DNA of 64,000 nucleotides from Desulfotomaculum sp. (GCA_003513005.1 DOTD01000092.1:11845-75844); one strand, 5' to 3'. Counted from the stretch's first letter, positions 10,746 through 34,242 are shown. Translations and numbers: made by a program. Notes: generated by a model not told the origin, from the sequence alone.

Positions 10746-10749
10746 TAAC

Positions 10750-14612: not shown

Positions 14613-14652
14613 TTGACAGCATCATCGATGTGCACTATATTTACAATGCACA
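14613..14652 (+). promoter_or_regulatory. Promoter plus inverted-repeat operator candidate for dinJ-yafQ
   Basis: TTGACA (14613-18), a 17-nt spacer, then TATATT (14636-41). The inverted repeat TGTGCA (14629-34) / TGCACA (14647-52) straddles the -10. Confidence 0.45.
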
Positions 14653-14699
14653 TATTTCATGTTAGAATGTATACAATGATAACAAAGGAGGGGTGGCAA

Positions 14700-15246: not shown

Positions 15247-15560
15247 ACAAAACACCCGGGTCAAACCATTTTTTTCGACAGCGGACAACGGTAAGATCCG
15301 GTTAACTATCTTTTTCCGGATTACCCTTCTTGTTGTGAAACCTCCGTTCGGAAAGCCCCGCCCCGGCAAGACCGGGAAGCAGCATCAGGCTCAACACAAG
15401 AAACAAGCAGGTTAAGATCAAAATCTAAAAAATTAATCCTCCAGTTTCCCCCTCCCCCAACCCCCTCCCGCTCATAAGGAGGGGGAATTAGGCAATTACA
15501 ATCTTCTCTTGCTCCTTTCCCCTTGAAGGGGAAGGGTTAGGGTGGGGGTGTTTTAATACT

Positions 15561-16650: not shown

Positions 16651-16654
16651 TACT

Positions 16655-16998
16655 ATGACGCTTCTGAAATACAGAGAATGGGAAGAGTTTAAGTTTCAAG
16701 TACAAAATGAAGAGAGCTTCTTCTTTGAAGCTTATGAAGATACCATACGAGCTATTTGCAGGAATTTGATTAGATCTTTCCCCGAAAGTGAACTTAAATT
16801 GTTATGGTTGCACTCCAATGCATATTTCAATTGCGAAAAAAAAGGTTCCCTGTTTTGGATGAAATGATTGAGAATGTAGAAGATGAGTTGTATTCAATAG
16901 TCTGCGATGTTGTTGCGGCCGCAAATGAAGAAATAGAGAATCCAAGCAATGAGAAGGAATATGACAATCCCATCAAACCCTTAGAAAAAAATATTTAA
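16655..16998 (+). pseudogene. Small hypothetical gene split by a frameshift in an A8 run
   Basis: MTLLKYREWEEFKFQ...NAYFNCEKK (A8 at ~16839-16846) continues in the +1 frame as FPVLDEMIENVEDELYS...PLEKNI*. Confidence 0.3.
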
Positions 16999-17023
16999 TT
17001 CATACTATTATTTAATTCATACT

Positions 17024-18983
17024 ATATATGATTCCCCTGCGAAAAGGGGTATTTTTTTCTTGCATTTTCCCCTTAAAAAAATTGAACTGGGATTATCATC
17101 CATTTAACTGACCATTATTTTGGCTACTTTTACGGTTTTATACTTGGATTATGGTTATCATCCTTTGTATTACTAGTTTTTTCTAGTAAATGGGCGCAAT
17201 AATCCCTTGATTATTGTTGTTTACAATTTCTGTAGCCTTTTTCCTTATATCTCCTTTGAAGAAGCGGACGATTTGCTTGAAGTTGTGTCCAATGATTTTC
17301 ATCCCGGTAACCAATGTTGCTTTGACTTTACCCCGTACATTAAGTCTTCCTGCCCCCTGTGAACACTTTAGCGAGGAGTTGGTTCCTTCAATGGCTGTAC
17401 GTTTGCTGGTAGCTTCTTTCCTGGCTCTTTTGTCCTCTTTCCGTTCGCGAGCTTCGGCCAGAAATATAGCACTCTGTTCAACTCGCAATACGGTACTATT
17501 TTTTCGGAATTCTACCGGGCAGGCGTCTTGCCGGGGACAGTTTGAACAGACATTCCTGTCGAAATGAGCGAGAATCACCTTGTTCTTTCCATTGAACTGG
17601 CAGCTATGTGGAGCGTGTCCTTCTGGGCAGGCCTCAACCGTTTTGTGGTCTTTAATGGTAAATGTGGTTAGCGGAAGCTTTTCAGGATCTGGTTGTTTTC
17701 CGGTCATGTCTGTATAATGCATCGTAATTCCATTATCTTGCGCTTGCTTTTCTACTTCCCCGCTAAAATAACCTCCATCGACGTAAAAGTCGGTGACATC
17801 CATTTTCTTTTGTATTTCAGGGATGCGCTTTTCTAATATCTCAGCATCGCCAACCCTGTTTTTCTCGACTGTATAGTCGGTGATTATTTGGACGGGGTTT
17901 TCGTCAGCACAAGTTTCGGTGATATTTAGGACTAGACCAACATGCCCTTTGGATCCCTTCTTACGGTAGGTCACATCTTGGTCGTAGGCTGATTGCAGGG
18001 AGTCGGCCTCAATGTCTTTATTTGCTTTTGCTTTCCAGGTATTCTTCTCGCTATCAAAAGTAGCCTGCTCGTTGATAAACCGCTGGAGAATCGCTATGGC
18101 GTTCAATTCACGTATGTACGGATTTGCTTCGGTGATGGATATCAGTTCGATCCCAAAATCGAGTATCTCCTGGATGCGTTTTTGTGCTTCACTGCCCCTG
18201 GAACGGTATAAGGCCTTCGTTTTGTACTCTGGTTCGAGCACCTGCTTTAAGGAATCTGTAAGAAGTTCCGGGGGGCAGGCGGTCAGGGCCTGAGACAAAA
18301 CATCATAGGCCAATGACAGCCGACCCGCCAATTTGATATTGGTCATGATTTGCGTGGAGTCTGCACGTTGCTCTTTGGTGTTGATCCCAGTTGACTCAAT
18401 AAACTGCCTGGTTAGTTTTTCGAATTGCCCAAAGATGAGATCGTCTTTATCCGGGTTTTCAACAGTATAGCGGTAAACCCGCCGCCGAAATTCGTACAAG
18501 GTGCGTTCGGCCAGATAGAGTTCACCGAGGTTGCGCAGACCAACAGCATACATAATCTGGTAGTTAAAACGAAACTGCTCGAGAATATCTTCGTCGGTGT
18601 AATCTTTCATGTGTTTAATGAACTCCAGGGAAAGCAGAATATTTACGGGGAAATTGGGGCGGCCGTTGTCCAGGCTGTACAAACAGGAAAAAGGAGCCTC
18701 ATCGATTTTACAAAACACATGCTCATAGAAAAGGGGCGCCCAAGTTTCCTGTAAACTGGCTTGTATCTTTGGATTCATCCATGAAAAACTATTAAATAGT
18801 TCTCCTTGTAGGTGGTCTTTGTTTTCCCGGAACATCTGAATCCTCCCTGATCGTATTTTGTTAGTTTGTCGTCAGATATCTTTCGATCTCTTTATTACAC
18901 TTCGATATTTACCCTTATTTCTCCTGCTGCCTCAGGAACTAATTTTTGTTATTCTATGGGGTTTTTGCAGTAGAATCATATAT
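17024..18983 (-). mobile_element. IS1182-family insertion sequence (~1.96 kb) with imperfect terminal inverted repeats
   Basis: The left end is ATATATGATTCCCCTGCGAAAAGG. The reverse complement of the right end is ATATATGATTCTACTGCAAAAACC. About 19 of the first 24 nt match by my manual alignment. A single intact transposase lies inside. Confidence 0.55.
17183..18835 (-). CDS. IS1182-family transposase (DUF772 N-terminus, DDE core, C-terminal Cys cluster)
   Basis: 550 aa and intact. The N-terminus ..RPNFPVNILLSLEFIKHMKDYTDEDILEQ.., the C-terminal ..RTAIEGTNSSLK.. and a CxxC..C cluster are typical of IS1182-group transposases. Confidence 0.8.
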   Translation of the reverse strand: MFRENKDHLQGELFNSFSWMNPKIQASLQETWAPLFYEHVFCKIDEAPFSCLYSLDNGRPNFPVNILLSLEFIKHMKDYTDEDILEQFRFNYQIMYAVGLRNLGELYLAERTLYEFRRRVYRYTVENPDKDDLIFGQFEKLTRQFIESTGINTKEQRADSTQIMTNIKLAGRLSLAYDVLSQALTACPPELLTDSLKQVLEPEYKTKALYRSRGSEAQKRIQEILDFGIELISITEANPYIRELNAIAILQRFINEQATFDSEKNTWKAKANKDIEADSLQSAYDQDVTYRKKGSKGHVGLVLNITETCADENPVQIITDYTVEKNRVGDAEILEKRIPEIQKKMDVTDFYVDGGYFSGEVEKQAQDNGITMHYTDMTGKQPDPEKLPLTTFTIKDHKTVEACPEGHAPHSCQFNGKNKVILAHFDRNVCSNCPRQDACPVEFRKNSTVLRVEQSAIFLAEARERKEDKRARKEATSKRTAIEGTNSSLKCSQGAGRLNVRGKVKATLVTGMKIIGHNFKQIVRFFKGDIRKKATEIVNNNNQGIIAPIY

Positions 18984-19278
18984 GGCGCACAGGTGGATTA
19001 TGGTTTTTTTGGTGGCCGGCAAGAGAAAACCAGAAATATAAAAACCTTTTCCCGGAAGAAAGCTTTACGATCACTTTAATTGATGAAGAAGATAGTATCT
19101 ATCAGGTCACGGGAAGAAAAGTTAACTGGGGAAGAGGTAGGGTATATATTGGTAATTTATTGAAGAGTTTATTTCAAAAAGATGATCGTATTGTAATTTT
19201 CCGTTATGCGTATGACGATAAGGTCTATGTCTACAGCGAACGTAAATATGAAGAAATAAATGGGCTTTCAACAATATA
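18974..19278 (+). pseudogene. Start-less ORF fragment abutting the IS right end (possible beta-barrel DNA-binding domain)
   Basis: The frame opens at the IS boundary and has no ATG/GTG/TTG until late. ..FTITLIDEEDSIYQVTGRKVNWGRGRVYIGNLLKSLFQKDDRIVIFRYAYDDKVYVY loosely resembles AbrB/B3-like barrels. Confidence 0.2.
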
Positions 19279-19604
19279 AATCTTGGGTTTTTGAACCTGT
19301 AAGAGCTAGAGGAATAATCTCACAAACCATATTGGAGCTTTGCAGGACGAAGGACAACGTTTTATTTATATCACCATTTTCAACATTTGCTGAAAGTGGT
19401 TATTTTAGTGATATCCATCTAATCTGCCCTTGTTTCCTGGCAGATAAAGAAGGACATATTTGGCAGGATAGAGAATTTTATGTTGATAATCATTTTTCCA
19501 AAGAGGATGATGCCATACGTTTAGCATTAAAGAGTTTGTTGTGCCCAAGGACAGTATCTTTGATCAGGCCAGGAGGGATTCAATCCTTGACCTGTCGGAT
19601 TTAA
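19260..19604 (+). CDS. Hypothetical ORF upstream of / overlapping the DUF499 gene
   Basis: A 114-aa ORF with no motif I recognise. It is AT-rich and overlaps the neighbours on both sides. Coding status is uncertain. Confidence 0.2.
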   Translation: MGFQQYKSWVFEPVRARGIISQTILELCRTKDNVLFISPFSTFAESGYFSDIHLICPCFLADKEGHIWQDREFYVDNHFSKEDDAIRLALKSLLCPRTVSLIRPGGIQSLTCRI

Positions 19605-22603
19605 TAGAAAACAAAATTAATCCTGACGACTTTTTTGGCGAGAACTTCCTCACTAACGGGATGAAGCATCTCCTTCGGGAATCCTTCCGGCGTTTTGCCG
19701 GCCATTCAGCCGCCGGGGTAATAAAATTAACCCAGGCTATGGGCGGCGGCAAAACTCACAATATGATCTGCGCGGGCCTGTTGGCCAAGTATCCTGAATA
19801 CAGGCCAAAAGTAATGGGCGAGGACTACCAGGAAGCCGGTTTGGGCAAAGTCCGCGTGGTGGCCTTTACAGGCAGGGAGAGCGACGCTCCTCTCGGAATA
19901 TGGGGATCTATTGCGGATCAGCTCGGCAAGAAAGAGTTGTTCAAGGATTATTATTCCCCTTTGTCAGCCCCAGGCCAGACAGCCTGGATTAATTTATTGA
20001 AAGGCGAATCTCTCTTAATCTTACTGGACGAACTTCCTCCCTATCTGGTTTATTCCAAATCAAAAACAATCGGCAACTCGGACCTGGCGCAGGTTACAAT
20101 TACAGCGTTGGCAAATCTTCTTGTCGCTGTTAACAAAGACGCGCTTTCCAATGTTTGTGTAGTCATTTCCGACCTGAAGGCCACCTATGAGGAAGGCACG
20201 CGGCTAATCGGTGAGGTTCTGAAGAACCTGGAAAATGAGATTGGAAGGGTTGCCCTGAATCTTGAGCCGGTGGCGCTTAACACTGACGAAGTTTATCATA
20301 TTTTAAGAAAAAGGCTTTTTAAGTCCCTGCCTGATGAAAATATAATCCTTGAAGTCGCGCGCTCGTATGCGCAGGCTCTCCGTGAAGCCAGGCAGATGGA
20401 CATAACCAACGTATCCCCGGATAAATTTGTCCAGGCAATCCGGGAATCCTACCCCTTCCATCCGGCAATCCGGGACCTATACGCCCGCTTCAGGGAAAAT
20501 CCCGGCTACCAGCAGACCCGCGACTTGATCCGTTTAATGAGGCTGGTAACGGCAAACTTATTCGGCGGCCAGGATGCGAAGGCTTCCAAATTACAGTTGA
20601 TCCACGCTTATGATATAGATTTGAACGACCGTGACATATTGGCCGAAATCACCAACATCAATCCATCCCTGGAAAATGCCATCAGCCACGACATTGCTTC
20701 AGGCGGCCAGGCCATTGCCGAAAATATAGATACCAACCTTGGCGGCGATGAAGCGCGTGACGCCTGCGCATTGCTGTTAATGTCCTCTTTAGCCAATGTT
20801 CCCAACGCCGTCCTCGGCCTTTCCCTTTCGGAAATTGTCGCCTACCTCTGCGCGCCCGGCCGTGACATCAGTAAACTTAAAGAAATACTGGGCAGCCTGT
20901 CTACCAAAGCCTGGTACCTTCATTCCAGTATTGAGGGCAAACTCTTCTTTAAAAACGTTCAAAACCTGGTTGCAAAACTTAAAACATTGGCCGATTCTTA
21001 CAACCAGGAATCTGCTATAAAAGAGCTCCGGTCAATCTTAACCGGGCTTTTTGCCCCCAGCCAAAAGGACTGCTACCAGGAATTGCAAGTAATGCCGGCC
21101 CTGGATGAGATTAAAGTTGCCGCTGACAAAGTGATTCTTGTTATCTACGAACCATATCCCGGCGGGCTGCACCCCGACCTGCAGAGTTTTTACCAGAACC
21201 TTGATTATAAAAACCGCATTTTGTTCCTGTCCGGCCAGCGGGATAATCTGGAGAACCTGCTGGAGGTGGCCAAAGAGCATAAAGCTATTAACAGCATTAT
21301 CGCGGAAATGGATCAGGAAAAATTGCCCGCAAACGACCCGCAGCGCGTTTCCGCCATGGATAAGCTGGATAAGATTATGCTCGGCCTGCTAAGCGCAGCC
21401 AGAGAAACTTTCGTTACCCTGACCTACCCCCATATCGACAAGTTGGTCAATGCGGACTTCAAGATGGAATACAGCAACAATCAGTACCGGGGGGAGCAGC
21501 AAGTCCGGGAGACATTAAAGTCAAAGCAGAAATTCACCGAAGACGTTACCGGCGAAACCTTCCGGAAAAAATGCGAAGCCAGGTTATTTACTCAGAAGAC
21601 AATGCTCTGGACAGAAGTTAAAAAGCGGGCTGCTCTAACCATAACCTGGCAATGGCACCGCACCGGCGCCCTGGATTCATTAAAAAGCGAGATGATTTTT
21701 AAGGACCAGTGGCGCGAGCAGGGCGGCTATGTGGAAAAGGGGCCTTTTCCTCCTCCGGTTACCAGTGTGCAGATTCAGCAAATGAGCAGGGATGACAATA
21801 CCGGCGAAGCCACCCTCAAACTTACTCCTGTACATGGAGATACGCTTTACTATGATATAAATGGGCCAGCGACAAGCGGCTCGATGCAGGTTTCCAATCC
21901 CAGGTCTTTTAAAACCCGGGAATTGATTGTTTCTTTCCTCTGCGCCGATTCCAGCGGAAAACACCAGCAGGGAAACCCTGCCACCTGGAAAAACCAGATT
22001 ACCATAAAATCCCGTTCCTTCCAGGGAACGAGCGGCGAAAAAATGGTCGAACTGAAGTCCGCTCCTCCCGCCCCCATCCGCTATACTACTGACGGTTCGG
22101 ATCCCAAATTATCCGGCGGAGCTTACAACGAACCTTTTGCCGTACCGCCGGGAACATTGCTTGTGCTGGCGGTGGCCGAGAAAAACGGCCTCGTTTCAGA
22201 AACGCACCGTTTGGAAATCAGGCAGCGGGGCACCGGGGGCGATCCGGCGCCGGAGGAGGTAGATCCCAATATTCCAGCAATCTGGCTTCGGGAGCATTTA
22301 CCTGGCACGACACAGGAAACTTATGAACTGATTAACTTGCTTAAAAAACACCGGGCCTCCCTGCCCGCGGCCAAAATAGCTGTAATAGGGCAATGCTGGG
22401 TGGAACTGAACCTTGATGAAAAGTTGCTGCTTGACGCAGCCAGGCTGGAGGAAATTATCGAGCAGTTGAGAAAACTTGTGCCCGAAGGCGAGGTCAGCCT
22501 GGAAGCAATGTCTCTTCATTTCCCGGCCGGACAGGACCTCTTGAACTGGGTAGCGGAAGTAAGGACAGAAATTAAACCGGGTGAGGTGAAACAACGTGGG
22601 TAG
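19541..22603 (+). CDS. DUF499 (BrxC-like) P-loop ATPase of a BREX/DISARM-related defence module
   Basis: 1020 aa. Walker A AMGGGKTHNM and Walker B-like LLILLDELPPY. The overall N-terminal layout (..DFFGENFLTNGMKHLL..) is as in DUF499/COG1483 proteins. GTG start. Confidence 0.8.
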   Translation: MPKDSIFDQARRDSILDLSDLIENKINPDDFFGENFLTNGMKHLLRESFRRFAGHSAAGVIKLTQAMGGGKTHNMICAGLLAKYPEYRPKVMGEDYQEAGLGKVRVVAFTGRESDAPLGIWGSIADQLGKKELFKDYYSPLSAPGQTAWINLLKGESLLILLDELPPYLVYSKSKTIGNSDLAQVTITALANLLVAVNKDALSNVCVVISDLKATYEEGTRLIGEVLKNLENEIGRVALNLEPVALNTDEVYHILRKRLFKSLPDENIILEVARSYAQALREARQMDITNVSPDKFVQAIRESYPFHPAIRDLYARFRENPGYQQTRDLIRLMRLVTANLFGGQDAKASKLQLIHAYDIDLNDRDILAEITNINPSLENAISHDIASGGQAIAENIDTNLGGDEARDACALLLMSSLANVPNAVLGLSLSEIVAYLCAPGRDISKLKEILGSLSTKAWYLHSSIEGKLFFKNVQNLVAKLKTLADSYNQESAIKELRSILTGLFAPSQKDCYQELQVMPALDEIKVAADKVILVIYEPYPGGLHPDLQSFYQNLDYKNRILFLSGQRDNLENLLEVAKEHKAINSIIAEMDQEKLPANDPQRVSAMDKLDKIMLGLLSAARETFVTLTYPHIDKLVNADFKMEYSNNQYRGEQQVRETLKSKQKFTEDVTGETFRKKCEARLFTQKTMLWTEVKKRAALTITWQWHRTGALDSLKSEMIFKDQWREQGGYVEKGPFPPPVTSVQIQQMSRDDNTGEATLKLTPVHGDTLYYDINGPATSGSMQVSNPRSFKTRELIVSFLCADSSGKHQQGNPATWKNQITIKSRSFQGTSGEKMVELKSAPPAPIRYTTDGSDPKLSGGAYNEPFAVPPGTLLVLAVAEKNGLVSETHRLEIRQRGTGGDPAPEEVDPNIPAIWLREHLPGTTQETYELINLLKKHRASLPAAKIAVIGQCWVELNLDEKLLLDAARLEEIIEQLRKLVPEGEVSLEAMSLHFPAGQDLLNWVAEVRTEIKPGEVKQRG

Positions 22604-23258
22604 CAGCCGGTATTCGACAGGCTTTGGTTTTAATCCGGAAGAATCAGGCCATCATTTCCTTGTCACAATCCATACGGCCAGGTCGTCACATGTTTACATC
22701 AGCGAACATTTTACCTGGGATCACAGTCAAAAAAGGCGGGATCTGAGTTTTACCCTGGGAAACGAGGACGACAAAATGCGGGTAATTTTACCCCGCAGCA
22801 AATGGCTGGACATTGCGGAACACGTGCAGGATGAATTCAACCGGCGGCTGAAAAAAAACGGTATTGCGGCGGGCCGCTGGAAAACAGGGCAGACTCCCGT
22901 ATCGCGGCTGCTGGGCAAGGAAATGACGCTGCTGGCCTGGGCTGTCGAAGACGCCGATCCGGCCCTAATCCCAGCTGCTGTCAAAAACTGGCTCGGCCTG
23001 GCCCCTGAAGAGCGCTGGTGGCTGTTCACCATGACCAACGCCGCAACCGGCCACGCGATCAACGGGCGGAACAAAGGCTGGAGAAAGGCCGTACGGTATG
23101 CCCTGACGGAGAACCCGGTCTCAGACGCCGAACCGGCTGAGCCGCGCCATGAGCTGTTGTTAATTATGAAAGAGACACTGTCCTGGGCCGGAGAACTTGA
23201 ATTAGTCCATCCCAGGAAGCAGGAAACGGACGCCGGCAATGAAAAAATCGTTTATTGA
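22596..23258 (+). CDS. DUF3780-like small protein of the DUF499/DUF1156 module
   Basis: 220 aa, overlapping both neighbours. Position and size match the DUF3780 component that I recall in this operon type. The family call rests on synteny plus a general resemblance. Confidence 0.6.
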   Translation: MGSSRYSTGFGFNPEESGHHFLVTIHTARSSHVYISEHFTWDHSQKRRDLSFTLGNEDDKMRVILPRSKWLDIAEHVQDEFNRRLKKNGIAAGRWKTGQTPVSRLLGKEMTLLAWAVEDADPALIPAAVKNWLGLAPEERWWLFTMTNAATGHAINGRNKGWRKAVRYALTENPVSDAEPAEPRHELLLIMKETLSWAGELELVHPRKQETDAGNEKIVY

Positions 23259-26142
23259 AACGCAGTTCCCCGTATCAAAGATTTCCAAAGAAAGCTACAA
23301 GGAACGGAAGGCCAATTACAGCCAGACACTTACCGGACTGGGCAAATGGTGGGGACGCAAGCCGCTGATTTTGGCGCGCGCCGCGATCATTGGGTTGTTG
23401 GTGCCGGCATCCGATAATCAGGTCAAAGACCGGGAAATTTTCCTCAAGATTCTCACGATGGATGAGGAAGGGCTCTGGCTGCGCAAAGATAAGCTGATTA
23501 CGCTTAAAGAAGTATATAAACGGCTTGATCAGACCCAAAGGGAGCGGTGGTTTAAAAAGACATCTACCGAAGACAAGCCGAAATTAAAAAAAGGGACGAC
23601 CAGAGAACAAAGGAAAGAACTGCAGCGGATTGTTTTTATGCCCCTGTCTTATGACGAAAAACTTCAGTACTGCAGACGCCCCGAACAGATTAAGGGGCCT
23701 TCCGGAAAAGCCTGGACGGAAATCAACACACACCTGAATACCGCCGCAAACAATCTGCAGGAACTTGTTAGCCAATTAGGAAAACGGCGGTTCGGCCATA
23801 CGCCGCGCGTCGGTGACGCCTTTTGCGGAGGCGGCAGCATTCCTTTCGAGGCCGCGCGACTCGGCTGCGAAGCTTACGGGTCGGACCTCAACCCGGTGGC
23901 GGCGTTGCTCACCTGGGCGGCGTTAAATATCATCGGCGGGGGCGAAATAATCGCCAAGCAGGTCCGCCAGGCGCAGCAGGAGGTTTATAATACTGTAGAT
24001 CAGCAAATCACTGCGTGGGGTATTGAGCACAACAAAGAGGGACACCGGGCGGACGCCTACCTATACTGCAATGAAGCTGTCTGCCCCGGATGCGGCTGGA
24101 AGGTTCCGCTGGCGCCTTCCTGGATTATCGGTGAAAAGACGCGCTGCGTGGCAAAATTAAAGCCTGACGAAACCGGCAAGCGGTTTGATATACTTATCGA
24201 ATCGGGGGTTTCAAATGAAGAAATGGAAAATGCAAGAGCGGCCGGCACCGTAAAAGATTCCGCTTTGTGCTGCCCCAACTGCCTTCCTCATGCCACTCCC
24301 ATGACCATGCTGCGCGGTGACGGACGTGGCGGGAAAGAACAGTATGGCCTGCGGATGTGGGAAAACTGGGATATCGTGCCCCGCCCGGAAGACGTTTTTC
24401 AGGAACGACTCTACTGCATCCGTTGGGTTTACACATGTGAAGACGAAGAGGGCAAAACTATAACTGAACGCTATTACAGCGCTCCCGACGAGGACGATCT
24501 GCGCCGGGAGGAACTTGTTCTGGAACTTTTACAGGAGCGCTTTGCCGAATGGCAGGAAAAAGGGTATATCCCAAGCCGCAGGATTGAGCCAGGATATAAT
24601 ACTGATCAACCTCTACGTGAACGCGGCTGGACACATTGGCATCACCTGTTTAACCACCGGCAATTATTACTAAATGCATTGTTAATAGATAATGCATTTA
24701 GTAACTTTACTACTGAAAATATTCTATTATCATTTTTATTTAGTATGGGAAGATGCTCAGATTGGAATAGTAAACTTTGCCGTTGGGATTCTAGCTCTGC
24801 AAATGAAAAAATGGCGCAAACTTTCTACAATCAAGCTTTAAATACATTATTTACATATGCCACAAGAAGCTTGTCGAGTTTTAAAAGTCCCTTTTTTCTA
24901 AATTGGTCCGTTAATATTTTTAATAACACAAGAGTTGTCTCAGCTAAAGATGCTCGCCAAAATGATCATTATTGTGATATCTGGTTAACTGACCCTCCAT
25001 ATGCCGATGCTATTAACTACCATGAACTGTCGGAATTTTTTATTGCCTGGTATGATAAACATATAAAAATATTTTTCCCTGAGTGGTACACAGACAGTAA
25101 ACGTGCGCTTGCCATCACCGGATCAGATGAGAATTTCCGCAAAAGTATGGTCGATTCATACCGCAACCTTGCCGAGCATATGCCGGTCGATGGGGCGCAG
25201 ATCGTTATGTTTACCCACCAGGATTCCGGAGTATGGGCGGATCTGGCATTAATTCTCTGGGCTGCCGGTTTGAGCGTAACAGCGGCCTGGTGCATAGCCA
25301 CCGAAACAGATTCCGCATTAAAAGAGGGCAATTATGTCCAGGGGACGGTGCTGCTGGTGCTGCGCAAGCAGACCTCCCTTGAAACGGCCTTTACTGATGA
25401 GATATACCCGCAGGTGGAAGAGGAAGTTAAGAACCAGTTAAATGAGATGCTGGCCCTGGAAGACCTGGAGGACCCCAATTTCAGCGACACCGATTACCAG
25501 CTTGCCGCTTACGCCGCCGCCCTGCGTGTTTTGACAAGGTACCGGAGCATAGAAGACATTGACGTGGCCGGGGAACTGGCCAGGCCCAGGCAGCGGGGCG
25601 AGCAGTCCCCTGTAGTGGACATTATCAACCGCGCTGTGGAAATTGCCTGCGATCACCTGGTTCCGAAGGGCATGGAGATATTCACTTGGAAAGGCCTTTC
25701 CCCGGAAGAAAGGTTCTACCTCAAGGGGCTTGAACTGGAGAGCCACGGGGAGCGCCGCTCAGGGGCTTACCAGGAGCTTGCCCGCGGTTTCGGGATCAGG
25801 GATTACCGTCAACTTCTGGAAGGCAGCCGGGCTAATCAGGCCAGGTTGAAAACAGCCTCCGAATTTGCCGCCAGGCAGTTGGAAAACACCGGTTTCGGCG
25901 CCACGCTTGTGCGCCAGGTTTTATTTGCCATCCGGGAGTCGGCGCACACGGGCGAAATTGCGCAAGGACGCAACTGGTTTTATAACGAACTTCAAGGCTT
26001 GTACTGGAATAAGCGCCAAACTATAATTCAAATCCTTCATTACCTAGCCGCGCTTGGATCTAACAAAAATATGCCCCACTGGCGGGATGACTCCAATGTG
26101 GCCAGGATTTTAGCGGGCGCGTTGAAAAATGACCATATTTAA
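23239..26142 (+). CDS. DUF1156 (COG1743-type) N6-adenine DNA methyltransferase with Zn-ribbon insertions
   Basis: The N-terminus is IETQFPVSKISKESYKERK...WWGRKPL. Motif I is DAFCGGGSIPFEAARLG. Cys pairs are CPGCG..CCPNC. Motif IV is DPPYADAINY. Confidence 0.85.
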   Translation: MKKSFIETQFPVSKISKESYKERKANYSQTLTGLGKWWGRKPLILARAAIIGLLVPASDNQVKDREIFLKILTMDEEGLWLRKDKLITLKEVYKRLDQTQRERWFKKTSTEDKPKLKKGTTREQRKELQRIVFMPLSYDEKLQYCRRPEQIKGPSGKAWTEINTHLNTAANNLQELVSQLGKRRFGHTPRVGDAFCGGGSIPFEAARLGCEAYGSDLNPVAALLTWAALNIIGGGEIIAKQVRQAQQEVYNTVDQQITAWGIEHNKEGHRADAYLYCNEAVCPGCGWKVPLAPSWIIGEKTRCVAKLKPDETGKRFDILIESGVSNEEMENARAAGTVKDSALCCPNCLPHATPMTMLRGDGRGGKEQYGLRMWENWDIVPRPEDVFQERLYCIRWVYTCEDEEGKTITERYYSAPDEDDLRREELVLELLQERFAEWQEKGYIPSRRIEPGYNTDQPLRERGWTHWHHLFNHRQLLLNALLIDNAFSNFTTENILLSFLFSMGRCSDWNSKLCRWDSSSANEKMAQTFYNQALNTLFTYATRSLSSFKSPFFLNWSVNIFNNTRVVSAKDARQNDHYCDIWLTDPPYADAINYHELSEFFIAWYDKHIKIFFPEWYTDSKRALAITGSDENFRKSMVDSYRNLAEHMPVDGAQIVMFTHQDSGVWADLALILWAAGLSVTAAWCIATETDSALKEGNYVQGTVLLVLRKQTSLETAFTDEIYPQVEEEVKNQLNEMLALEDLEDPNFSDTDYQLAAYAAALRVLTRYRSIEDIDVAGELARPRQRGEQSPVVDIINRAVEIACDHLVPKGMEIFTWKGLSPEERFYLKGLELESHGERRSGAYQELARGFGIRDYRQLLEGSRANQARLKTASEFAARQLENTGFGATLVRQVLFAIRESAHTGEIAQGRNWFYNELQGLYWNKRQTIIQILHYLAALGSNKNMPHWRDDSNVARILAGALKNDHI

Positions 26143-26213
26143 AATTATAAATCTGTAATAAAGCAATTTATCATGCTATCTAACTAACCAATCAAAGTAA
26201 CGAGGTAAGCGAC

Positions 26214-28895
26214 TTGATTAACCGATTTTCCTCAAGGCGGCAAAAACTGGATTATTCTTTCCTAAAAGGCCGGTTGACCGGCGCGCAGGCATACGACCGC
26301 ATAGCTGGCTATTTTCGTTCCTCTATGCTGGAAGTAGCCGGTGAGGCTTTGGAAACTGTCACCGGGCCTGTGCAGGTGGTCTGCAACTCCGATTTGGAAC
26401 TGCGGGATGTAGAAACAGCCAGGGCCGCCCAGTATGCCATGAGGCGTGAGTGGTGCGAAGCAGAGCCGGAGAAATACGGCCCGGCCTCCCAGCCGCGGCT
26501 TTCCAAATTATTTGAATTGCTGTATTCCGGAAAGCTTCAGATCCGGGTTATGCCGCGTGAAAAATTCGGCTTGATACACGGTAAGGCCGGAGTCATCACA
26601 CTGAGTGACGGACGCAGGACTTCTTTTATCGGGAGCGCTAACGAAACATACAGCGCCTGGAAAATGAATTATGAAATCATCTGGGAAGACGATTCCGCAG
26701 AAGCGGTCAAATGGGTACAGGAGGAGTTCGACGCGCTCTGGAACAGCCCCTTCGCGATATCTCTATCCGACTTTATAATCCAGGACATCGGCCGGCTGGC
26801 GCGCCGCGTGGTAATTCCCAGCGTTGAAGACTGGCGGCGGGAGCCGGATCCATCAATGACTGTTATCGAAACTCCTGTTTACCGCCGGGAAAACGGCCTG
26901 TGGGAACACCAAAAATATTTTGTACAGCATGCATTTGAAGCGCACAAAAGGAACGGCGCCAGGCTTGTCCTGGCTGATATGGTAGGTTTGGGGAAAACTG
27001 TACAGCTGGCGCTGGCAGCCCAGTTAATGGCTCTTTACGGAAGCAGGCCTGTGCTCATCCTGGCGCCTAAAACACTGCTCCTGCAATGGCAGGATGAGAT
27101 GAAAAACCTGCTTGATATGCCGTCCGCCGTGTGGAACGGCAAGCAATGGATAGACGAAAACGGGATTGAATACCCGGTTATGGGTCCCGAGGGGATAAGC
27201 AAGTGCCCAAGAAGAATTGGCGTGGTATCAACGGGACTTATCATCAGCAAATCAGAAGTCGCCGAGTTACTTAAACAGATTAACTATGAGTGTATAATCG
27301 TGGATGAGGCGCACCGTGCGCACCGTAACAACCTGGGACCGGGCAAAGAGGCTGAAAAACCAGAACGCAATCATTTGTTGGACTTTCTAGATCAGGTGGC
27401 TGCCCATACGAAAAGCATGTTACTGGCCACGGCGACTCCGGTACAGAAAGACCCGGTAGAGGCGTGGGACCTTCTGGATGTGCTTTCCCGCGGAAACGAG
27501 GAAGTCTTCGGCGCTCGTTTCAGCAACTGGAGAAGGCCAGGCGAAGCGTTAGACCTTGTATTGGGGTCTATGGAACTGCCCGAAGATGATTTTGATCGCT
27601 GGAGCTGGATAAGAAACCCGCTGCCTCAAGCATCGGAAGAGCGTGATTTTGGATTGATCCGCCGCTCACTGCGCATGGCGGACAGTGATAATGTAGCGCC
27701 GTCCGAAGCGTGGCATACGATGAGCGAAGCTGATCGCAGCAGGATAAGACGGCTTTCCAGGTCTTTCGTACAACGGTACAATCCTTTTATCCGCCATATC
27801 GTCATGCGAACCAGGGATTTTTTAGAAAACACCATCGACCCTGAAACTGGCGAACCGTATTTAAAAAGAGTAAAGGTAGAGCTTTTTGGAGAAAAAGAGA
27901 AAGAAGCCGTCCGCCTGACCCCTTATTTAAAAGAAGCATATGAACTGGCCGGGGAATTTTGCAGACTGCTTGCGGCACGTTTAAAAACAGCCGGTTTTCT
28001 TAAAACTCTTTTACTCAAGAGAGTGGGCAGCACAATCTACGCGGGAAAATTGACGGCCGAAAAAATGTTAAGAGACTGGCAATATGTAGTTAAAGAGGAT
28101 AATGAAGAAGATGAACAGGTTCCTGATATTAACGACATAAAAACCCTGACACAGGAAGAAAGGGAAGTTCTCCAAAGATTTGTACAAGCCTTAAGCGCGG
28201 AAGAGCGGGATCCCAAGTATGAAGTTATTCTTGACTGCTTGACGGAAAAAGGCTGGCTGGAACAGGGCTGCATTATTTTCTCACAGTACTACGACTCCAT
28301 TTTTTGGCTGGCTGAAAACTTATCAAAGGAATTGCCTGAAGAAAATATCGGCATATACGCCGGCGACGAGAGGTCCTCTATAATAAAGAACGGCTGTATG
28401 GTTAGGGCGGCCAGGGATGAACTTAAAAGGCTGGTTTCCAAAGGTTCGTTAAGATTATTACTGGGAACAGATGCGGCAAGCGAAGGAATCAATTTGCAGC
28501 GTTTGGGCACGTTGATTAATCTCGACCTTCCCTGGAACCCGACCCGGTTGGAGCAGCGCAAAGGAAGGATCCAGCGGATCGGTCAAACAAGAGACACTGT
28601 TTTAATATATAACCTCAGGTACAAGGACTCTGTAGAAGACCGTGCCCATGAACTGCTTTCTGATCGCATGGAAGAAATCTTCAGGCTGTTTGGGCAAATC
28701 CCGGACGTATTGGAGGATACCTGGGTGTACCTGGCTTTGGGAGAAATCGAACAGGCCAAAAAGACAATCGACTCTATTCAAAAAAAGCATCCGTTTGACA
28801 TCAAATATAACCAGATAGAAAAGGTTCCCTGGGAATCCTGCGAACGTGTGCTAGACTCCGCAGACCGCCGCAAATACCTGACCCAGGGATGGTAA
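26214..28895 (+). CDS. PLD-like nuclease domain fused to an SNF2-family helicase
   Basis: N-terminal HKD-like LIHGKAGV...FIGSANET. Helicase motifs GLGKT, DEAH (IIVDEAHRAH), TATP and QRKGRIQRIGQ. A TTG start follows GAGGT. Confidence 0.85.
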   Translation: MINRFSSRRQKLDYSFLKGRLTGAQAYDRIAGYFRSSMLEVAGEALETVTGPVQVVCNSDLELRDVETARAAQYAMRREWCEAEPEKYGPASQPRLSKLFELLYSGKLQIRVMPREKFGLIHGKAGVITLSDGRRTSFIGSANETYSAWKMNYEIIWEDDSAEAVKWVQEEFDALWNSPFAISLSDFIIQDIGRLARRVVIPSVEDWRREPDPSMTVIETPVYRRENGLWEHQKYFVQHAFEAHKRNGARLVLADMVGLGKTVQLALAAQLMALYGSRPVLILAPKTLLLQWQDEMKNLLDMPSAVWNGKQWIDENGIEYPVMGPEGISKCPRRIGVVSTGLIISKSEVAELLKQINYECIIVDEAHRAHRNNLGPGKEAEKPERNHLLDFLDQVAAHTKSMLLATATPVQKDPVEAWDLLDVLSRGNEEVFGARFSNWRRPGEALDLVLGSMELPEDDFDRWSWIRNPLPQASEERDFGLIRRSLRMADSDNVAPSEAWHTMSEADRSRIRRLSRSFVQRYNPFIRHIVMRTRDFLENTIDPETGEPYLKRVKVELFGEKEKEAVRLTPYLKEAYELAGEFCRLLAARLKTAGFLKTLLLKRVGSTIYAGKLTAEKMLRDWQYVVKEDNEEDEQVPDINDIKTLTQEEREVLQRFVQALSAEERDPKYEVILDCLTEKGWLEQGCIIFSQYYDSIFWLAENLSKELPEENIGIYAGDERSSIIKNGCMVRAARDELKRLVSKGSLRLLLGTDAASEGINLQRLGTLINLDLPWNPTRLEQRKGRIQRIGQTRDTVLIYNLRYKDSVEDRAHELLSDRMEEIFRLFGQIPDVLEDTWVYLALGEIEQAKKTIDSIQKKHPFDIKYNQIEKVPWESCERVLDSADRRKYLTQGW

Positions 28896-29091
28896 TCCTT
28901 GCCTTTTTCCTTGCTTATTTGCCCACCCAACCTGTAATATAATAATAAAGAGTAAAATTCTTGTAATCATAAAACAGGAAATTTTTTTATATTTGTCGTA
29001 TTATATAGAAAAACAAATGAAAAACAATCATTTATAAATTTACGTAACAACCACAGCCCAAGAATTTTAAAGATTTAAGAGGCGCAGTTTT

Positions 29092-30108
29092 TTGGGTACT
29101 TTTAACGAGCTACATTTTGAAAATGAATTCTATTTTCAATGGCACATAACAGAAAGGTGCAACCTCAGGTGTAAACACTGTTATCATAATAATTATGACT
29201 CTGAAGGCGAATTAAGTTCGGAGGAACTTTTATCGGTTTTAGACATATTAGATAGCACAGCCACCAAGTGGGGCAAGCTCGCTACACTGTCAATAACCGG
29301 CGGAGAGCCGCTTCTACGGTTAAATGAAATTAAACAGATAGCAGACAAAATAGTATCAAAAAAACACATTTATTATTTTGACCTCCTTACAAATGGAACC
29401 CTATTAGATAAGGACACTCTTTCCTTCCTGTCAAAGTCGAAAAAGTTGCGCAGGGTGCAGCTTTCCCTTGAAGGGCCTAACTCTACAAAAAATGACGACA
29501 TTCGTGGCCATGGAAACTTCGAAAAAATCCTATCTGCTATAGCATCCCTTAGAGAATATCAAATACCAATCTGTATCATGGTTACACTTACTCGTGACAA
29601 TTGGGAGGACATTCCAGGAATAGTTAAATTGGCTGTAGATTATGGTGTTAATTATCTTAGCTTTGAAAGATTTATCCCTGAAGGTAAAGGAAAACAAGTC
29701 AAAGAAAAAATATTAAGCCGGAATGAGCTGAAATCAGCCAACCAGTTAATTGCCAGATTATCGCAAGAAGAAAATCGTGTAAAATTTTTAACTTACCGTC
29801 CTCTTTTTGCTCTTTGCGGCGACGCTTTCGGTGCCATGTGTTCTATTGGTACAAATGCTCTTACCATTATGCATGACGGTACTGTATACCCTTGCCGGCG
29901 CTTACCGATACCATTGGGTAACATTCTAAGTGACGGACTGTATAAAATATGGTATGGTTCTGATTTATTATGGGAAATCCGCAATTCCCGCAACCTGAAG
30001 GGTAAGTGCAACAATTGCGAATTGCTGCCTGTTTGCCGTGGTTGCCGTGCAGCGGCTTATTATCTAAACGGAGATTACCTTGCGGAGGACCCTCAATGTT
30101 GGAAATAA
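29092..30108 (+). CDS. Radical SAM / SPASM-domain peptide-modifying enzyme
   Basis: CNLRCKHC (CxxxCxxC) near the N-terminus. The C-terminal SPASM-type Cys cluster is ..CSIGTNALTIMHDGTVYPCRRL..CNNCELLPVCRGCRAAAY..DPQCWK. First gene of the AT-rich island. Confidence 0.85.
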   Translation: MGTFNELHFENEFYFQWHITERCNLRCKHCYHNNYDSEGELSSEELLSVLDILDSTATKWGKLATLSITGGEPLLRLNEIKQIADKIVSKKHIYYFDLLTNGTLLDKDTLSFLSKSKKLRRVQLSLEGPNSTKNDDIRGHGNFEKILSAIASLREYQIPICIMVTLTRDNWEDIPGIVKLAVDYGVNYLSFERFIPEGKGKQVKEKILSRNELKSANQLIARLSQEENRVKFLTYRPLFALCGDAFGAMCSIGTNALTIMHDGTVYPCRRLPIPLGNILSDGLYKIWYGSDLLWEIRNSRNLKGKCNNCELLPVCRGCRAAAYYLNGDYLAEDPQCWK

Positions 30109-30392
30109 AACCACAGTCAAAGTTCAAACTAAACGAAGATTTTATCTTACACCAAATAGAGGAACTAGATAAATACTGGCTTTTCAATATTGTTAATGGT
30201 GACATCTTTAACCTTAATGATGTCTCCATGTTTATTTTACAAAAGATAAGTGAAGGAAATAACTTTGAATCATTGGTTTTTAAACTGCTTCAACAATTTG
30301 ACGTTGATGAAAACAGGGCACAAAATGATCTTCAAAAAATATTACGGCAGTTATTTCATGAAAAAATTATTAGCCAAATAAAGGAGGATTAA
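30096..30392 (+). CDS. PqqD-family peptide chaperone (RiPP recognition element)
   Basis: The 98-aa protein starts at the internal ATG 30096 and overlaps the rSAM stop. ..FILHQIEELDKYWLFNIVNGDIFNLNDVSMFILQKI.. fits the PqqD/RRE pattern. Confidence 0.7.
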   Translation: MLEIKPQSKFKLNEDFILHQIEELDKYWLFNIVNGDIFNLNDVSMFILQKISEGNNFESLVFKLLQQFDVDENRAQNDLQKILRQLFHEKIISQIKED

Positions 30393-30394
30393 CC

Positions 30395-30526
30395 ATGGTT
30401 AAAAAGCCCTATAAGGAACCAGTTTTGGAAAAGCAGGAATCTATGCGCATTGCAGAAGAAACTATTGAAAAAGCCACGGGAAAACTTATCTGCAAACAAT
30501 GCTCATCCTGTCATGGTTGCAGATAA
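30395..30526 (+). CDS. Unannotated 43-aa Cys-rich precursor-like peptide
   Basis: It is not in the ORF track because it is shorter than 60 aa. The ATG lies 2 nt after the PqqD stop and AAGGAGG is 7 nt upstream. Translation: MVKKPYKEPVLEKQESMRIAEETIEKATGKLICKQCSSCHGCR*. Confidence 0.6.
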   Translation: MVKKPYKEPVLEKQESMRIAEETIEKATGKLICKQCSSCHGCR

Positions 30527-30570
30527 TTTCTGATTACTGTTTATTTGTTTTTTGCCTAGGGGGTTGAGAA

Positions 30571-34241: not shown

Positions 34242-34242
34242 T

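What the first reader, a model, noticed from the sequence alone, without database searches (positions are those of the whole stretch)
19541..28895. Four-gene DUF499 - DUF3780 - DUF1156 methyltransferase - PLD/SNF2 helicase defence module (BREX/DISARM-related, no PglZ)
**Seen.**
- Four co-directional genes. The first three overlap (22596/22603 and 23239/23258).
- A BrxC-like P-loop ATPase (GGGKTH).
- A small DUF3780-like protein.
- A 967-aa MTase with FxGxG, DPPY and Zn-ribbon insertions.
- An 893-aa protein joining an HKD-like nuclease motif to a complete SNF2 helicase core.

**Established, from memory.** This gene set has been flagged by comparative genomics of defence islands as a restriction/BREX-like module. 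DUF499 is the BrxC domain.

**Inference.**
- It lacks PglZ/BrxA/B/L, so it is not canonical BREX.
- It lacks DrmA/DrmB, so it is not DISARM.
- To my knowledge its mechanism is not experimentally resolved.
- An IS1182 element and orphan gene fragments sit immediately upstream. The 5' side of the module may therefore have been remodelled.
Basis: partly seen in the sequence, partly recalled or inferred. Interest (0 to 1): 0.65.

Follow-up and report, generated by a model that had tools for sequence, protein, structure and literature searches.

The report
Known MANTIS (Gao_RL) phage-defence operon
The four genes are real and intact, but they are an ordinary member of an already named and experimentally studied anti-phage system (Gao_RL, also called Type-2 BREX-related or MANTIS), so the locus is well explained rather than new.

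Summary
Window 19541-28895 carries four co-directional, intact genes: a DUF499 AAA+ ATPase, a DUF3780 protein, a DUF1156 N6-adenine methyltransferase and a PLD-nuclease/SNF2-helicase fusion. HMM support is very strong (PADLOC E 1e-49 to 1e-298, plus four dedicated NCBIfam 'anti-phage' models).

The gene set is not uncharacterised.
- It is Gao_RL/Gao_29 (Gao et al. 2020).
- It was catalogued as the 'Type-2 BREX-related (BR) system' in 1120 taxa (NAR 2026, PMC12839542).
- It was renamed MANTIS (mtsABCD) in a September 2026 preprint that works out most of the mechanism.

In that mechanism, MtsA and MtsB load and activate MtsC, which hemimethylates an asymmetric 6-bp site. MtsABC recognition of unmodified sites then licenses the dimeric MtsD helicase-nuclease, and inverted site pairs are restricted best.

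Every mutationally tested catalytic residue is conserved here. The domain architecture equals that of a Pseudomonas plasmid locus whose residue numbering matches the studied system. dN/dS against close relatives is 0.05-0.14.

The local differences are minor:
- 33-45% identity to the Pseudomonas type.
- No MtsR repressor.
- An IS1182-family element and a changed 5' flank, with no core gene missing.

Novelty: already known. Interest: low.

The parts
19483..19511 (+). Weak sigma-70-like promoter match (TTGATA-17-GATGAT) 30 bp upstream of mtsA, inside the 122-bp leader shared with relative L001
   Evidence: Consensus scan, 9 of 12 matches. Homology to L001 begins at 19419. Not evidence of function.
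19541..22603 (+). mtsA: DUF499 ORC/Cdc6-clade AAA+ ATPase (1020 aa). Walker A K71, Walker B E164, Arg-finger R236 and sensor-2 R327. FnIII-like (Fn3_assoc/CHB_HEX_C_1) region at aa ~745-890, followed by a hypervariable C-terminus
   Evidence: Pfam DUF499 1e-32 and Fn3_assoc at aa 836-887. PADLOC DUF499 4e-208 over aa 12-1019. NCBIfam DUF499_antiphage 817 bits, below the 1200 cut-off. Residue mapping. Conservation and C-terminal entropy peak at aa 901-1000.
22596..23258 (+). mtsB: DUF3780 protein (220 aa), the Type-2-specific co-activator of methylation. Conserved core at aa ~100-175, including E139, W142 and G161 of the dimer interface
   Evidence: Pfam DUF3780 6.5e-51. PADLOC 9.5e-49. NCBIfam DUF3780_antiphage 173 bits, cut-off 200. 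Interface mapping. Entropy profile.
23239..26142 (+). mtsC: DUF1156-type N6-adenine DNA methyltransferase (967 aa). Motif I F195CGGG, central target-recognition insert, motif IV D585PPY, and a conserved Cys cluster C277/C282/C285/C345
   Evidence: Pfam DUF1156 1.5e-22. PADLOC DUF1156_MTase 1.4e-298. NCBIfam DUF1156_antiphage 1421.6 bits, above the 1000 cut-off. Motif positions and conservation.
24649..24978 (+). Hypervariable segment of mtsC (aa 471-580), the probable DNA-specificity cassette just upstream of DPPY
   Evidence: 39% identity to the Pelotomaculum relative L002 here against 80-84% in the rest of MtsC. 99% identical to L001. Family entropy peaks at aa 481-500 and 541-580. The experimentally swapped specificity region of P. 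aeruginosa MtsC (aa 444-527) maps to roughly window aa 397-493 via pG69.
26214..28895 (+). mtsD: N-terminal single-HKD PLD nuclease (H122, K124, GSAN 140) fused to a complete SNF2-family helicase-like ATPase (K261, DEAH 364, motif VI 781-791); 893 aa
   Evidence: Pfam PLDc_2, SNF2-rel_dom, Helicase_C and ResIII. PADLOC PLD_Helicase 7e-241 over aa 1-893. NCBIfam phospholipD_antiphage 1289 bits, above the 1100 cut-off. Invariant motifs. Nearest solved sequences are SNF2 ATPases such as RapA.
28884..28901 (+). Terminator-like hairpin overlapping the mtsD stop codon, followed by a T-rich run
   Evidence: Pattern scan: 7-bp stem with 3 GC pairs, tail CCTTTTTCCT. Weak evidence only.

Best explanation
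The locus is an intact mtsABCD operon of the MANTIS family (synonyms Gao_RL, Gao_29, Type-2 DUF499-centred BREX-related system). It is a methylation-based, restriction-like defence against phages and plasmids.

The mechanism is carried over from the characterised P. aeruginosa homologue. It is inferred for this locus, not shown here.
1. MtsC cannot bind DNA by itself. The AAA+ ATPase MtsA loads it onto an unmodified, asymmetric recognition site of about 6 bp.
2. With MtsB and nucleotide-bound MtsA, MtsC methylates one adenine on one strand only (hemimethylation), which marks self DNA.
3. ATP hydrolysis by MtsA resets the loader for further rounds.
4. On incoming unmodified DNA, the site-bound MtsABC complex licenses a dimer of MtsD. 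Its two single-HKD domains form one PLD active site, and its SNF2-like motors are proposed to translocate.
5. Restriction is strongest when unmodified sites occur as inverted pairs and weaker for direct repeats or single sites.

Shown here: gene content and order, full-length homology, conservation of every mutationally tested catalytic residue, and purifying selection. Inferred: activity in this host, the recognition sequence (unknown), and the cleavage step. The original study did not reconstitute cleavage in vitro either.
For: - **Gene content:** four ORFs with full-length profile matches to the dedicated PADLOC models DUF499, DUF3780, DUF1156_MTase and PLD_Helicase and to the four NCBIfam 'anti-phage' equivalog models NF042961-NF042964. 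MtsC and MtsD score above the curated cut-offs.
- **Gene order:** A-B-C-D is the order found wherever related loci are long enough, across many bacterial phyla and archaea. DUF499 sits directly upstream of DUF3780 in 79 of 80 loci, and about 43 of 80 show all four genes.
- **Match to the published definition:** PMC12839542 defines Type-2 BR by a standalone DUF3780 gene, an N-terminal HKD replacing TUDOR on the helicase, a DUF1156 MTase and often FnIII-like domains in DUF499. All are present here.
- **Link to the studied system:** the MANTIS preprint equates Gao_RL, BR type-2 and MANTIS and gives the tested residues. P. fluorescens pG69 carries the paper's residue at every named position and has the same Pfam architecture as the window proteins. 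The window proteins align to it end to end at 33-45% identity.
- **Conserved residues:** MtsA K71/H73/E164/R236/R327, MtsC D585/Y588 and MtsD H122/K261 are retained.
- **Selection:** dN/dS is 0.09-0.14 against L001 and 0.05-0.10 against L002 for all four genes.
- **Specificity cassette:** MtsC shows a localised hyperdivergent segment, as expected for a specificity-determining TRD.
- **Expression signals:** SD sequences and overlapping stop/start codons suggest co-translation of mtsA, mtsB and mtsC.
Against: - No experiment exists on this locus or organism. The recognition site and methylation are unknown.
- MtsA (817 vs 1200 bits) and MtsB (173 vs 200 bits) fall below the NCBIfam equivalog cut-offs, which reflects 33-45% identity to the Pseudomonas-type proteins.
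- One ATP-contacting residue of the studied MtsA (E25) is Leu here. Three of six MtsB dimer-interface positions differ: S to A, D to E and A to S.
- No MtsR repressor gene is present.
- The native 5' flank has been replaced next to an IS element, so expression in this host is not guaranteed. The promoter match is weak.
- The mechanistic source is a very recent preprint. It did not detect MtsD cleavage in vitro and leaves the role of MtsB open.
Confidence: 0.9

Rival explanations
1. A decaying, non-functional remnant. The module sits in an IS-ridden island of degraded defence genes, has lost its native promoter or regulator, and is no longer an active defence system.
For: The upstream neighbours are fragments: JetA3 N-terminal third only at 12051-12974(-), a small JetC3 piece at 10323-11489(-), an SLH fragment and two transposases. 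Homology with L001 breaks 122 bp upstream of mtsA, next to an IS1182-family element. There is no MtsR. The promoter match is weak.
Against: All four ORFs are full length against their profiles, with no internal stops. All catalytic motifs are intact. dN/dS of 0.05-0.14 against two relatives shows continuing purifying selection on every gene. The 122-bp leader with the promoter-like site is retained in L001. MtsR is optional in the family.
Confidence: 0.07
2. A member of a neighbouring family instead: Hma / Type-1 BR, a partial Type-3 BREX, or DISARM.
For: Secondary PADLOC hits to HmaC (5.6e-51), HmaB (1e-32), HmaA (1.5e-34), BrxHI/II (5e-35), PglXI (1e-12) and DrmD (3e-40). These reflect shared ancestry of the ATPase, MTase and helicase cores.
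Against: The best full-length hits, by hundreds of bits, are the DUF499, DUF3780, DUF1156_MTase and PLD_Helicase models. A standalone DUF3780 gene and an N-terminal HKD nuclease define Type-2 and are absent from Type-1/Hma, whose helicase has TUDOR plus a C-terminal PD-(D/E)XK domain. The PADLOC and Pfam scans of the four genes and their neighbours found no PglZ, BrxA/B/L/F, DrmA or DrmB.
Confidence: 0.02
3. A MANTIS homologue that works differently in this lineage. For example, the MTase-helicase-nuclease pair could act autonomously like a Type III/ISP restriction enzyme, with MtsA and MtsB serving as phage sensors through the FnIII-like and hypervariable C-terminal domains rather than as an MTase loader.
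For: Identity to the characterised type is only 33-45%. The MtsA C-terminus is the most variable part of the protein, and PMC12839542 proposes that it senses invaders. MtsA E25 and half of the MtsB interface residues are not conserved.
Against: The Pfam architecture is identical to that of the Pseudomonas type, including Fn3_assoc in MtsA. The ATPase and Arg-finger/sensor residues are conserved. The four genes are strictly linked in the same order across phyla, which argues for one shared mechanism.
Confidence: 0.05

Closest known systems
MANTIS (mtsABCD) of P. aeruginosa AZPAE15024; bioRxiv 10.64898/2026.09.23.753747
   Same: The same four proteins in the same order, with the same Pfam architecture as the Pseudomonas-type proxy locus pG69. 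All mutationally tested residues are conserved: MtsA Walker A/B, MtsC DPPY, MtsD H122 and Walker A Lys. There is a localised hypervariable TRD in MtsC.
   Different: Only 33% (MtsA), 45% (MtsB), 42% (MtsC) and 38% (MtsD) identity to pG69. No MtsR (Arc/CopG) repressor gene. The recognition sequence is unknown. The host is an anaerobic Firmicute (Pelotomaculum-like), not a Pseudomonas.
Gao_RL / Gao_29 'restriction-like' system of E. coli (Gao et al. 2020, Science 369:1077, as cited)
   Same: The same four-gene family. The PADLOC and NCBIfam models for this set match full length.
   Different: No detectable DNA-level similarity to any complete E. coli genome. Protein identity to the E. coli system was not measured.
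Type-2 DUF499-centred BREX-related (BR) system (Rakesh & Krishnan, NAR 2026, PMC12839542)
   Same: It meets every stated synapomorphy: a standalone DUF3780 gene, an HKD nuclease in place of TUDOR at the helicase N-terminus, a DUF1156 N-terminal domain on the MTase, and FnIII-like domains ahead of the variable C-terminus of DUF499.
   Different: None in architecture. It is the bare core, without the embedded auxiliary effectors seen in many other loci.
Hma / Type-1 BR system (PADLOC paper PMC8565338; Halomonas HmaA study PMC11232893)
   Same: Homologous ATPase, MTase and SNF2 helicase cores, seen as secondary PADLOC hits.
   Different: Hma has no DUF3780 gene. Its helicase carries TUDOR plus a C-terminal PD-(D/E)XK (DUF3883) domain instead of an N-terminal PLD nuclease.
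BREX (especially Type 3: BrxC, PglXI, BrxHII, PglZ, BrxA, BrxF)
   Same: AAA+ ATPase of the BrxC/DUF499 kind, a large N6-adenine MTase that hemimethylates asymmetric 6-bp sites, and a SNF2 helicase.
   Different: No PglZ, BrxA, BrxB or BrxL. It has a dedicated PLD nuclease effector. According to the preprint, MtsC is a group-alpha MTase rather than the group-gamma PglX type.
SauUSI (Type IV) and Type III / ISP restriction enzymes
   Same: PLD nuclease plus SF2 motor in a dimer with a single PLD active site (SauUSI-like). Preference for inverted pairs of hemimethylatable asymmetric sites (Type III/ISP-like).
   Different: MtsD has no target-recognition domain of its own and attacks unmethylated DNA after recognition by MtsABC. 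The orientation preference is graded, not absolute.

Membership tests
MANTIS / Gao_RL / Type-2 BR | DUF499-type AAA+ ATPase (MtsA) with intact Walker A and Walker B | tested here: met
   Pfam DUF499 1e-32. PADLOC DUF499 4e-208 over the full length. GGGKTH (K71) and LLDE (E164) are 100% conserved in 63 homologues. Arg-finger R236 and sensor-2 R327 are conserved.
MANTIS / Gao_RL / Type-2 BR | Standalone DUF3780 gene (MtsB) inside the locus | tested here: met
   Pfam DUF3780 6.5e-51. It lies between the ATPase and MTase genes, as in 79 of 80 related loci. This is the defining Type-2 feature according to PMC12839542.
MANTIS / Gao_RL / Type-2 BR | N6-adenine MTase with an N-terminal DUF1156 domain, motif I, a central TRD and DPPY (MtsC) | tested here: met
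   DUF1156 1.5e-22. DUF1156_MTase 1.4e-298. NF042963 scores 1421.6 bits against a cut-off of 1000. FCGGG at aa 195 and DPPY at aa 585 are invariant. Hypervariable insert between them.
MANTIS / Gao_RL / Type-2 BR | Effector with an N-terminal HKD/PLD nuclease (no TUDOR) fused to a Swi2/Snf2 helicase (MtsD) | tested here: met
   PLDc_2 at aa 62-176, SNF2-rel_dom and Helicase_C. PLD_Helicase 7e-241 over aa 1-893. NF042964 scores 1289 bits against a cut-off of 1100. H122/K124/GSAN and the helicase motifs are invariant.
MANTIS / Gao_RL / Type-2 BR | Co-directional operon in the order A-B-C-D | tested here: met
   Overlapping stop/start codons for A/B and B/C.
MANTIS / Gao_RL / Type-2 BR | All four proteins reach the NCBIfam equivalog cut-offs | tested here: inconclusive
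   MtsC and MtsD pass. MtsA (817 vs 1200 bits) and MtsB (173 vs 200 bits) do not. The alignments are still full length, and the same split annotation occurs in the Desulfosarcina BuS5 plasmid locus.
MANTIS / Gao_RL / Type-2 BR | Hemimethylation of an asymmetric 6-bp site that depends on MtsA, MtsB, MtsC and ATP | not testable with these tools
   Needs a methylome or biochemistry. Shown for P. aeruginosa only.
MANTIS / Gao_RL / Type-2 BR | Restriction of phage and plasmid that requires all four proteins and favours inverted site pairs | not testable with these tools
   Shown for P. aeruginosa.
MANTIS / Gao_RL / Type-2 BR | MtsR (Arc/CopG ribbon-helix-helix repressor) upstream. Optional, present in 'some operons' | tested here: not met
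   No RHH-like ORF in 18836-19545. The 114-aa ORF at 19260-19604 has no Pfam or PADLOC hit. pG69 has a 59-aa gene upstream whose sequence looks RHH-like by eye, though it has no Pfam hit. This is not a defining feature.
Canonical BREX (types 1-6) | PglZ alkaline-phosphatase-family protein, with BrxA/BrxB and (by type) BrxL, in the locus | tested here: not met
   No PglZ or Brx hits apart from helicase/MTase core similarity, in the four genes, in ten neighbouring ORFs scanned with PADLOC and in the flanking ORFs scanned with Pfam.
DISARM | DrmA helicase and DrmB (DUF1998) core pair | tested here: not met
   Only partial DrmD/DrmA hits through the shared helicase C-terminal domain. No DUF1998 protein nearby.
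Hma / Type-1 BR | Three-gene core without DUF3780; helicase with TUDOR and a C-terminal PD-(D/E)XK domain | tested here: not met
   DUF3780 is present and the nuclease is an N-terminal PLD. Definition taken.

The most novel reading that the evidence does not exclude
The 110-residue block of MtsC just upstream of DPPY (aa 471-580) is 39% identical between this locus and its Pelotomaculum relative L002, against about 82% elsewhere. Its most variable part (aa 541-580) lies downstream of the region that corresponds to the experimentally swapped specificity loop. It could be a second exchangeable specificity determinant that has not been mapped. Cassette exchange there would reprogram both methylation and restriction in this MtsR-less Firmicute clade of MANTIS.
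Probability: 0.25. Interest if true: 0.3.

Novelty: already known. Interest (0 to 1): 0.12.

Why it matters
For annotation, these four genes should be labelled mtsA-mtsD (MANTIS / Gao_RL / BR type-2) rather than 'DUF' proteins or an uncharacterised BREX/DISARM-like module.

For biology, the locus adds little. It is one more intact example, in an anaerobic Pelotomaculum-like Firmicute, of a system already catalogued in more than 1000 taxa and already dissected mechanistically.

Its modest value is as a divergent orthologue (33-45% identity) lacking MtsR. That could help test how general the MtsA/MtsB-dependent loading of the methyltransferase is. The window, L001 and L002 also form a natural series for mapping the specificity determinants in MtsC.

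Tried and rejected
- **PDB sequence searches.** MtsA, MtsB and MtsC gave no hits, so the MANTIS structures are not in the PDB copy. MtsD hit only generic SNF2 ATPases such as RapA. No direct link to the studied proteins could be made this way.
- **blastn of mtsD against all complete E. coli genomes (distant mode).** No match, so the E. coli Gao_RL locus could not be retrieved. I used the P. fluorescens plasmid pG69 instead, whose residues match the preprint's numbering at every named position.
- **Search for an MtsR or any conserved gene upstream of mtsA.** None in the window and nothing conserved across 63 loci. Only L079 has a weak RHH-like (NikA/DUF6290) candidate.
- **The 114-aa ORF at 19260-19604 overlapping the mtsA start.** No family hits, and it is conserved in L001 only where the shared leader begins. 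I treated it as not a gene.
- **Exact-match contig look-up for organism identity.** Only short metagenomic contigs were returned. The host is inferred only from the relatives (Firmicutes UBA5766, Pelotomaculum UBA4789) and from the anaerobe metabolic genes.
- **The downstream radical SAM/SPASM gene as a fifth component.** Rejected: it co-occurs only in the near-identical L001, and its pVip hits are generic radical SAM similarity.
- **Rfam and tRNA scans.** Nothing inside the module.
- **Predicting the recognition sequence.** Not possible, because no sequences of MANTIS MTases with known specificity were available.


Full report

Yes. The ORF list gives four co-directional ORFs at exactly the stated coordinates:
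- 19541-22603 (1020 aa, GTG start)
- 22596-23258 (220 aa, GTG start)
- 23239-26142 (967 aa, ATG start)
- 26214-28895 (893 aa, TTG start)

The first three overlap by 8 and 20 nt, and a 71-nt spacer precedes the fourth. Each start has a Shine-Dalgarno-like element: AAGAG before mtsA, GAGGTG 6 nt before mtsB, AGGAAA before mtsC and GAGGT 7 nt before mtsD.

Pfam confirms DUF499 (1e-32, plus Fn3_assoc/CHB_HEX_C_1 at aa 832-887), DUF3780 (6.5e-51), DUF1156 (1.5e-22) and PLDc_2 + SNF2-rel_dom + Helicase_C. These matches are far beyond chance.

**2. What is it?**

PADLOC holds a dedicated full-length model for each of the four proteins:
- DUF499: 4e-208
- DUF3780: 9.5e-49
- DUF1156_MTase: 1.4e-298
- PLD_Helicase: 7e-241

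NCBIfam has four 'anti-phage' equivalog models, NF042961 to NF042964. MtsC (1421.6 bits, cut-off 1000) and MtsD (1289 bits, cut-off 1100) pass. MtsA (817 vs 1200) and MtsB (173 vs 200) align over their full length but fall short of the cut-offs.

The literature search showed that this gene set already has names. [quoted passage not shown] Their criteria are a standalone DUF3780 gene (98% of taxa), an HKD nuclease replacing the TUDOR domain at the N-terminus of the Swi2/Snf2 helicase (83%), a DUF1156-type MTase, and tandem FnIII-like domains in DUF499 (53%).

A bioRxiv preprint of 24 September 2026 (10.64898/2026.09.23.753747) states that this family was 'previously termed Gao_RL' (also Gao_29, from Gao et al. 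2020). It says the family is BR type-2 and renames it MANTIS, with genes mtsA to mtsD and an optional repressor mtsR.

**3. How conserved is the module?**

A scan of one genome per species found at least 559 stretches encoding DUF3780 relatives. In the 80 best loci DUF499 lies directly upstream of DUF3780 in 79. Wherever enough sequence is present, the order ATPase, DUF3780, MTase, PLD-helicase holds. About 43 loci show all four genes. The loci span Firmicutes, Cyanobacteria, Verrucomicrobia, Acidobacteria, Proteobacteria, Chloroflexi and methanogenic archaea.

The nearest relatives are a 'Firmicutes bacterium UBA5766' contig (L001, about 96% nt identity from window 19419 to 28905) and Pelotomaculum sp. 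UBA4789 (L002, about 75%). Plasmid-borne copies exist and PGAP already annotates them with the 'anti-phage' names.

**4. How does it compare with the studied system?**

The solved MANTIS structures are not in the PDB copy, and E. coli genomes gave no DNA-level hit. I therefore used P. fluorescens plasmid pG69 as a proxy.

At every position named in the preprint, pG69 carries the stated residue:
- MtsA: E25, K80, H82, E174, R244, R336
- MtsB: E156, W159, S167, G177, D188, A190
- MtsD: H122, K260

Its numbering therefore matches the P. aeruginosa proteins. pG69 also has a 59-aa gene immediately upstream of mtsA. Its sequence looks like a ribbon-helix-helix protein by eye, although it has no Pfam hit.

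The window proteins align to pG69 end to end at 33% (MtsA), 45% (MtsB), 42% (MtsC) and 38% (MtsD) identity. They have the same Pfam architecture, including Fn3_assoc in MtsA.

Mapped onto the window:
- Conserved in MtsA: K71 (Walker A), H73, E164 (Walker B), R236 (Arg finger) and R327 (sensor 2).
- Conserved in MtsD: H122 and K261.
- Conserved in MtsB: E139, W142 and G161.
- Not conserved: MtsA E25 (Leu here) and three MtsB interface positions (S to A, D to E, A to S).

Across 31 to 63 family members the catalytic motifs are essentially invariant.

**5. Is it alive or decaying?**

The neighbourhood is a decaying, IS-ridden island. It contains:
- Wadjet fragments: JetA3 N-terminal third at 12051-12974(-) and a JetC3 piece at 10323-11489(-).
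- A DDE transposase, a RelB-like gene and an SLH fragment.
- An IS1182-family element bounded by 22-nt inverted repeats at 17024-17045 and 18962-18983.

Homology with L001 stops at 19419, 122 bp upstream of mtsA. The 5' flank has therefore indeed been exchanged.

The module itself is intact. All four ORFs match their profiles over the full length. dN/dS is 0.09-0.14 against L001 and 0.05-0.10 against L002 for every gene. Nothing conserved lies upstream of mtsA in other loci, and MtsR is optional, so no core part is missing. A weak promoter-like site at 19483-19511 lies inside the shared leader, and a terminator-like hairpin overlaps the mtsD stop codon.

**6. How does it most likely work?**

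This mechanism is carried over from the preprint. It is inferred for this locus.
1. MtsC alone does not bind DNA. MtsA loads it on unmodified asymmetric 6-bp sites (CAACAC or CAACAG in the two Pseudomonas systems).
2. MtsB and nucleotide-bound MtsA trigger methylation of a single adenine on one strand.
3. ATP hydrolysis by MtsA allows turnover.
4. Restriction in vivo needs all four proteins and both ATPase activities.
5. Specificity for both reactions comes from the MtsC TRD.
6. Inverted pairs of unmodified sites are restricted best, in a graded rather than absolute way.
7. MtsD is a dimer with one composite PLD active site and resembles SauUSI. Cleavage has not yet been reconstituted in vitro, and the role of MtsB remains unclear.

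**7. Locus-specific detail.**

MtsC variation is strongly localised. Against L002, identity is 39% in aa 471-580 but 80-84% elsewhere. Against L001 the same block is 99% identical. Family entropy peaks at aa 401-420, 481-500 and 541-580, all between motif I and DPPY.

The experimentally swapped specificity region (P. aeruginosa aa 444-527) maps to roughly window aa 397-493 via pG69. The window and L001 therefore probably share a recognition sequence, and L002 probably does not.

The MtsA C-terminus (aa 901-1000) is the most variable part of that protein, as PMC12839542 describes.

The preprint text never mentions zinc or cysteine.

**8. Verdict.**

The module is an ordinary member of a named, catalogued and now largely characterised system.

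Novelty: already known. Interest: low (0.12).

Noticed in passing
window 10323-12974 (- strand): Remnants of a Wadjet system. A 307-aa ORF (12051-12974) matches only positions 4-193 of the 536-position JetA3 profile (E 1e-100). A 388-aa ORF (10323-11489) matches only positions 61-230 of the 1471-position JetC3 profile (E 2e-30). No JetB or JetD was seen in the ORFs scanned, so this looks like a degraded defence system next to the intact MANTIS operon.
   Followed up: partly
window 13374-18983: Mobile and fragmentary DNA between the Wadjet remnants and MANTIS: a DDE_Tnp_1 transposase (13374-14384), a RelB antitoxin-like ORF (14613-14981), an SLH-domain fragment (15561-16226, -), a ZU5-like ORF (16227-16556, -), and an IS1182-family element at 17024-18983 with 22-nt terminal inverted repeats.
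   Followed up: partly
window 29092-37048: A low-GC block (30-34% GC at 30-34 kb, against about 50% in the MANTIS genes) directly downstream. It encodes a radical SAM/SPASM protein (best NCBIfam hit 'ACGX system', below cut-off), a 962-aa metallo-beta-lactamase-fold protein, a prenyltransferase/terpene-cyclase-like protein, an asparagine-synthase homologue and a GT4 glycosyltransferase. The first two are also downstream of MANTIS in L001 (82% nt identity) but in no other locus. Function unknown; possibly a peptide-modification or cell-envelope cluster.
   Followed up: partly
window 51316-51435 (-), 57327-57447 (-), 57699-57818 (+): Three Moco/Tuco riboswitches (RF01055, 56-65 bits). Two precede tungstate/molybdate-related genes and the aldehyde:ferredoxin oxidoreductase region. 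The third lies upstream of a 613-aa PKD x2 + SLH x3 cell-surface protein (58045-59886), which is an unusual gene to follow this riboswitch.
   Followed up: no
L002 13557-15233; L080 13517-15394; L009 14540-15853; L040 14096-17077; L027 10801-13935; L031 11416-13140; L018 4957-6072; L084 11528-12985: Many related MANTIS loci carry extra genes inserted between mtsB and mtsC or between mtsC and mtsD. Examples: a GmrSD Type IV endonuclease (in the Pelotomaculum relative), an OLD-family ATPase-TOPRIM nuclease, AAA_21 ATPases, ~1000-aa Eco57I/MmeI-like N6-methyltransferases, a Schlafen-AlbA_2/HATPase_c_4 protein and an IrrE-like M78 peptidase. The window has the bare four-gene core.
   Followed up: partly
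window 24067-24273 (MtsC aa 277-345): A Cys cluster (C277-x4-C282-x2-C285 ... C345) is 91-100% conserved in 47 MtsC homologues, suggesting a structural metal site in the TRD insert. The MANTIS preprint text does not mention zinc or cysteines.
   Followed up: partly
L084 (Desulfosarcina sp. BuS5 plasmid NZ_CP087953) 3167-7958: In this plasmid-borne MANTIS locus the mtsA gene is annotated as two overlapping CDSs ('DUF499 domain-containing' and 'FN3 associated domain-containing'), suggesting a frameshift. An IS4 transposase sits immediately upstream, another case of IS elements abutting the 5' end of the module.
   Followed up: no
bioRxiv 10.64898/2026.09.23.753747, Introduction: The preprint calls MtsB a 'DUF3870' protein. 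The Pfam family that matches MtsB here and in pG69 is DUF3780 (PF12635), as PMC12839542 also states, so this is probably a typo in the preprint.
   Followed up: yes
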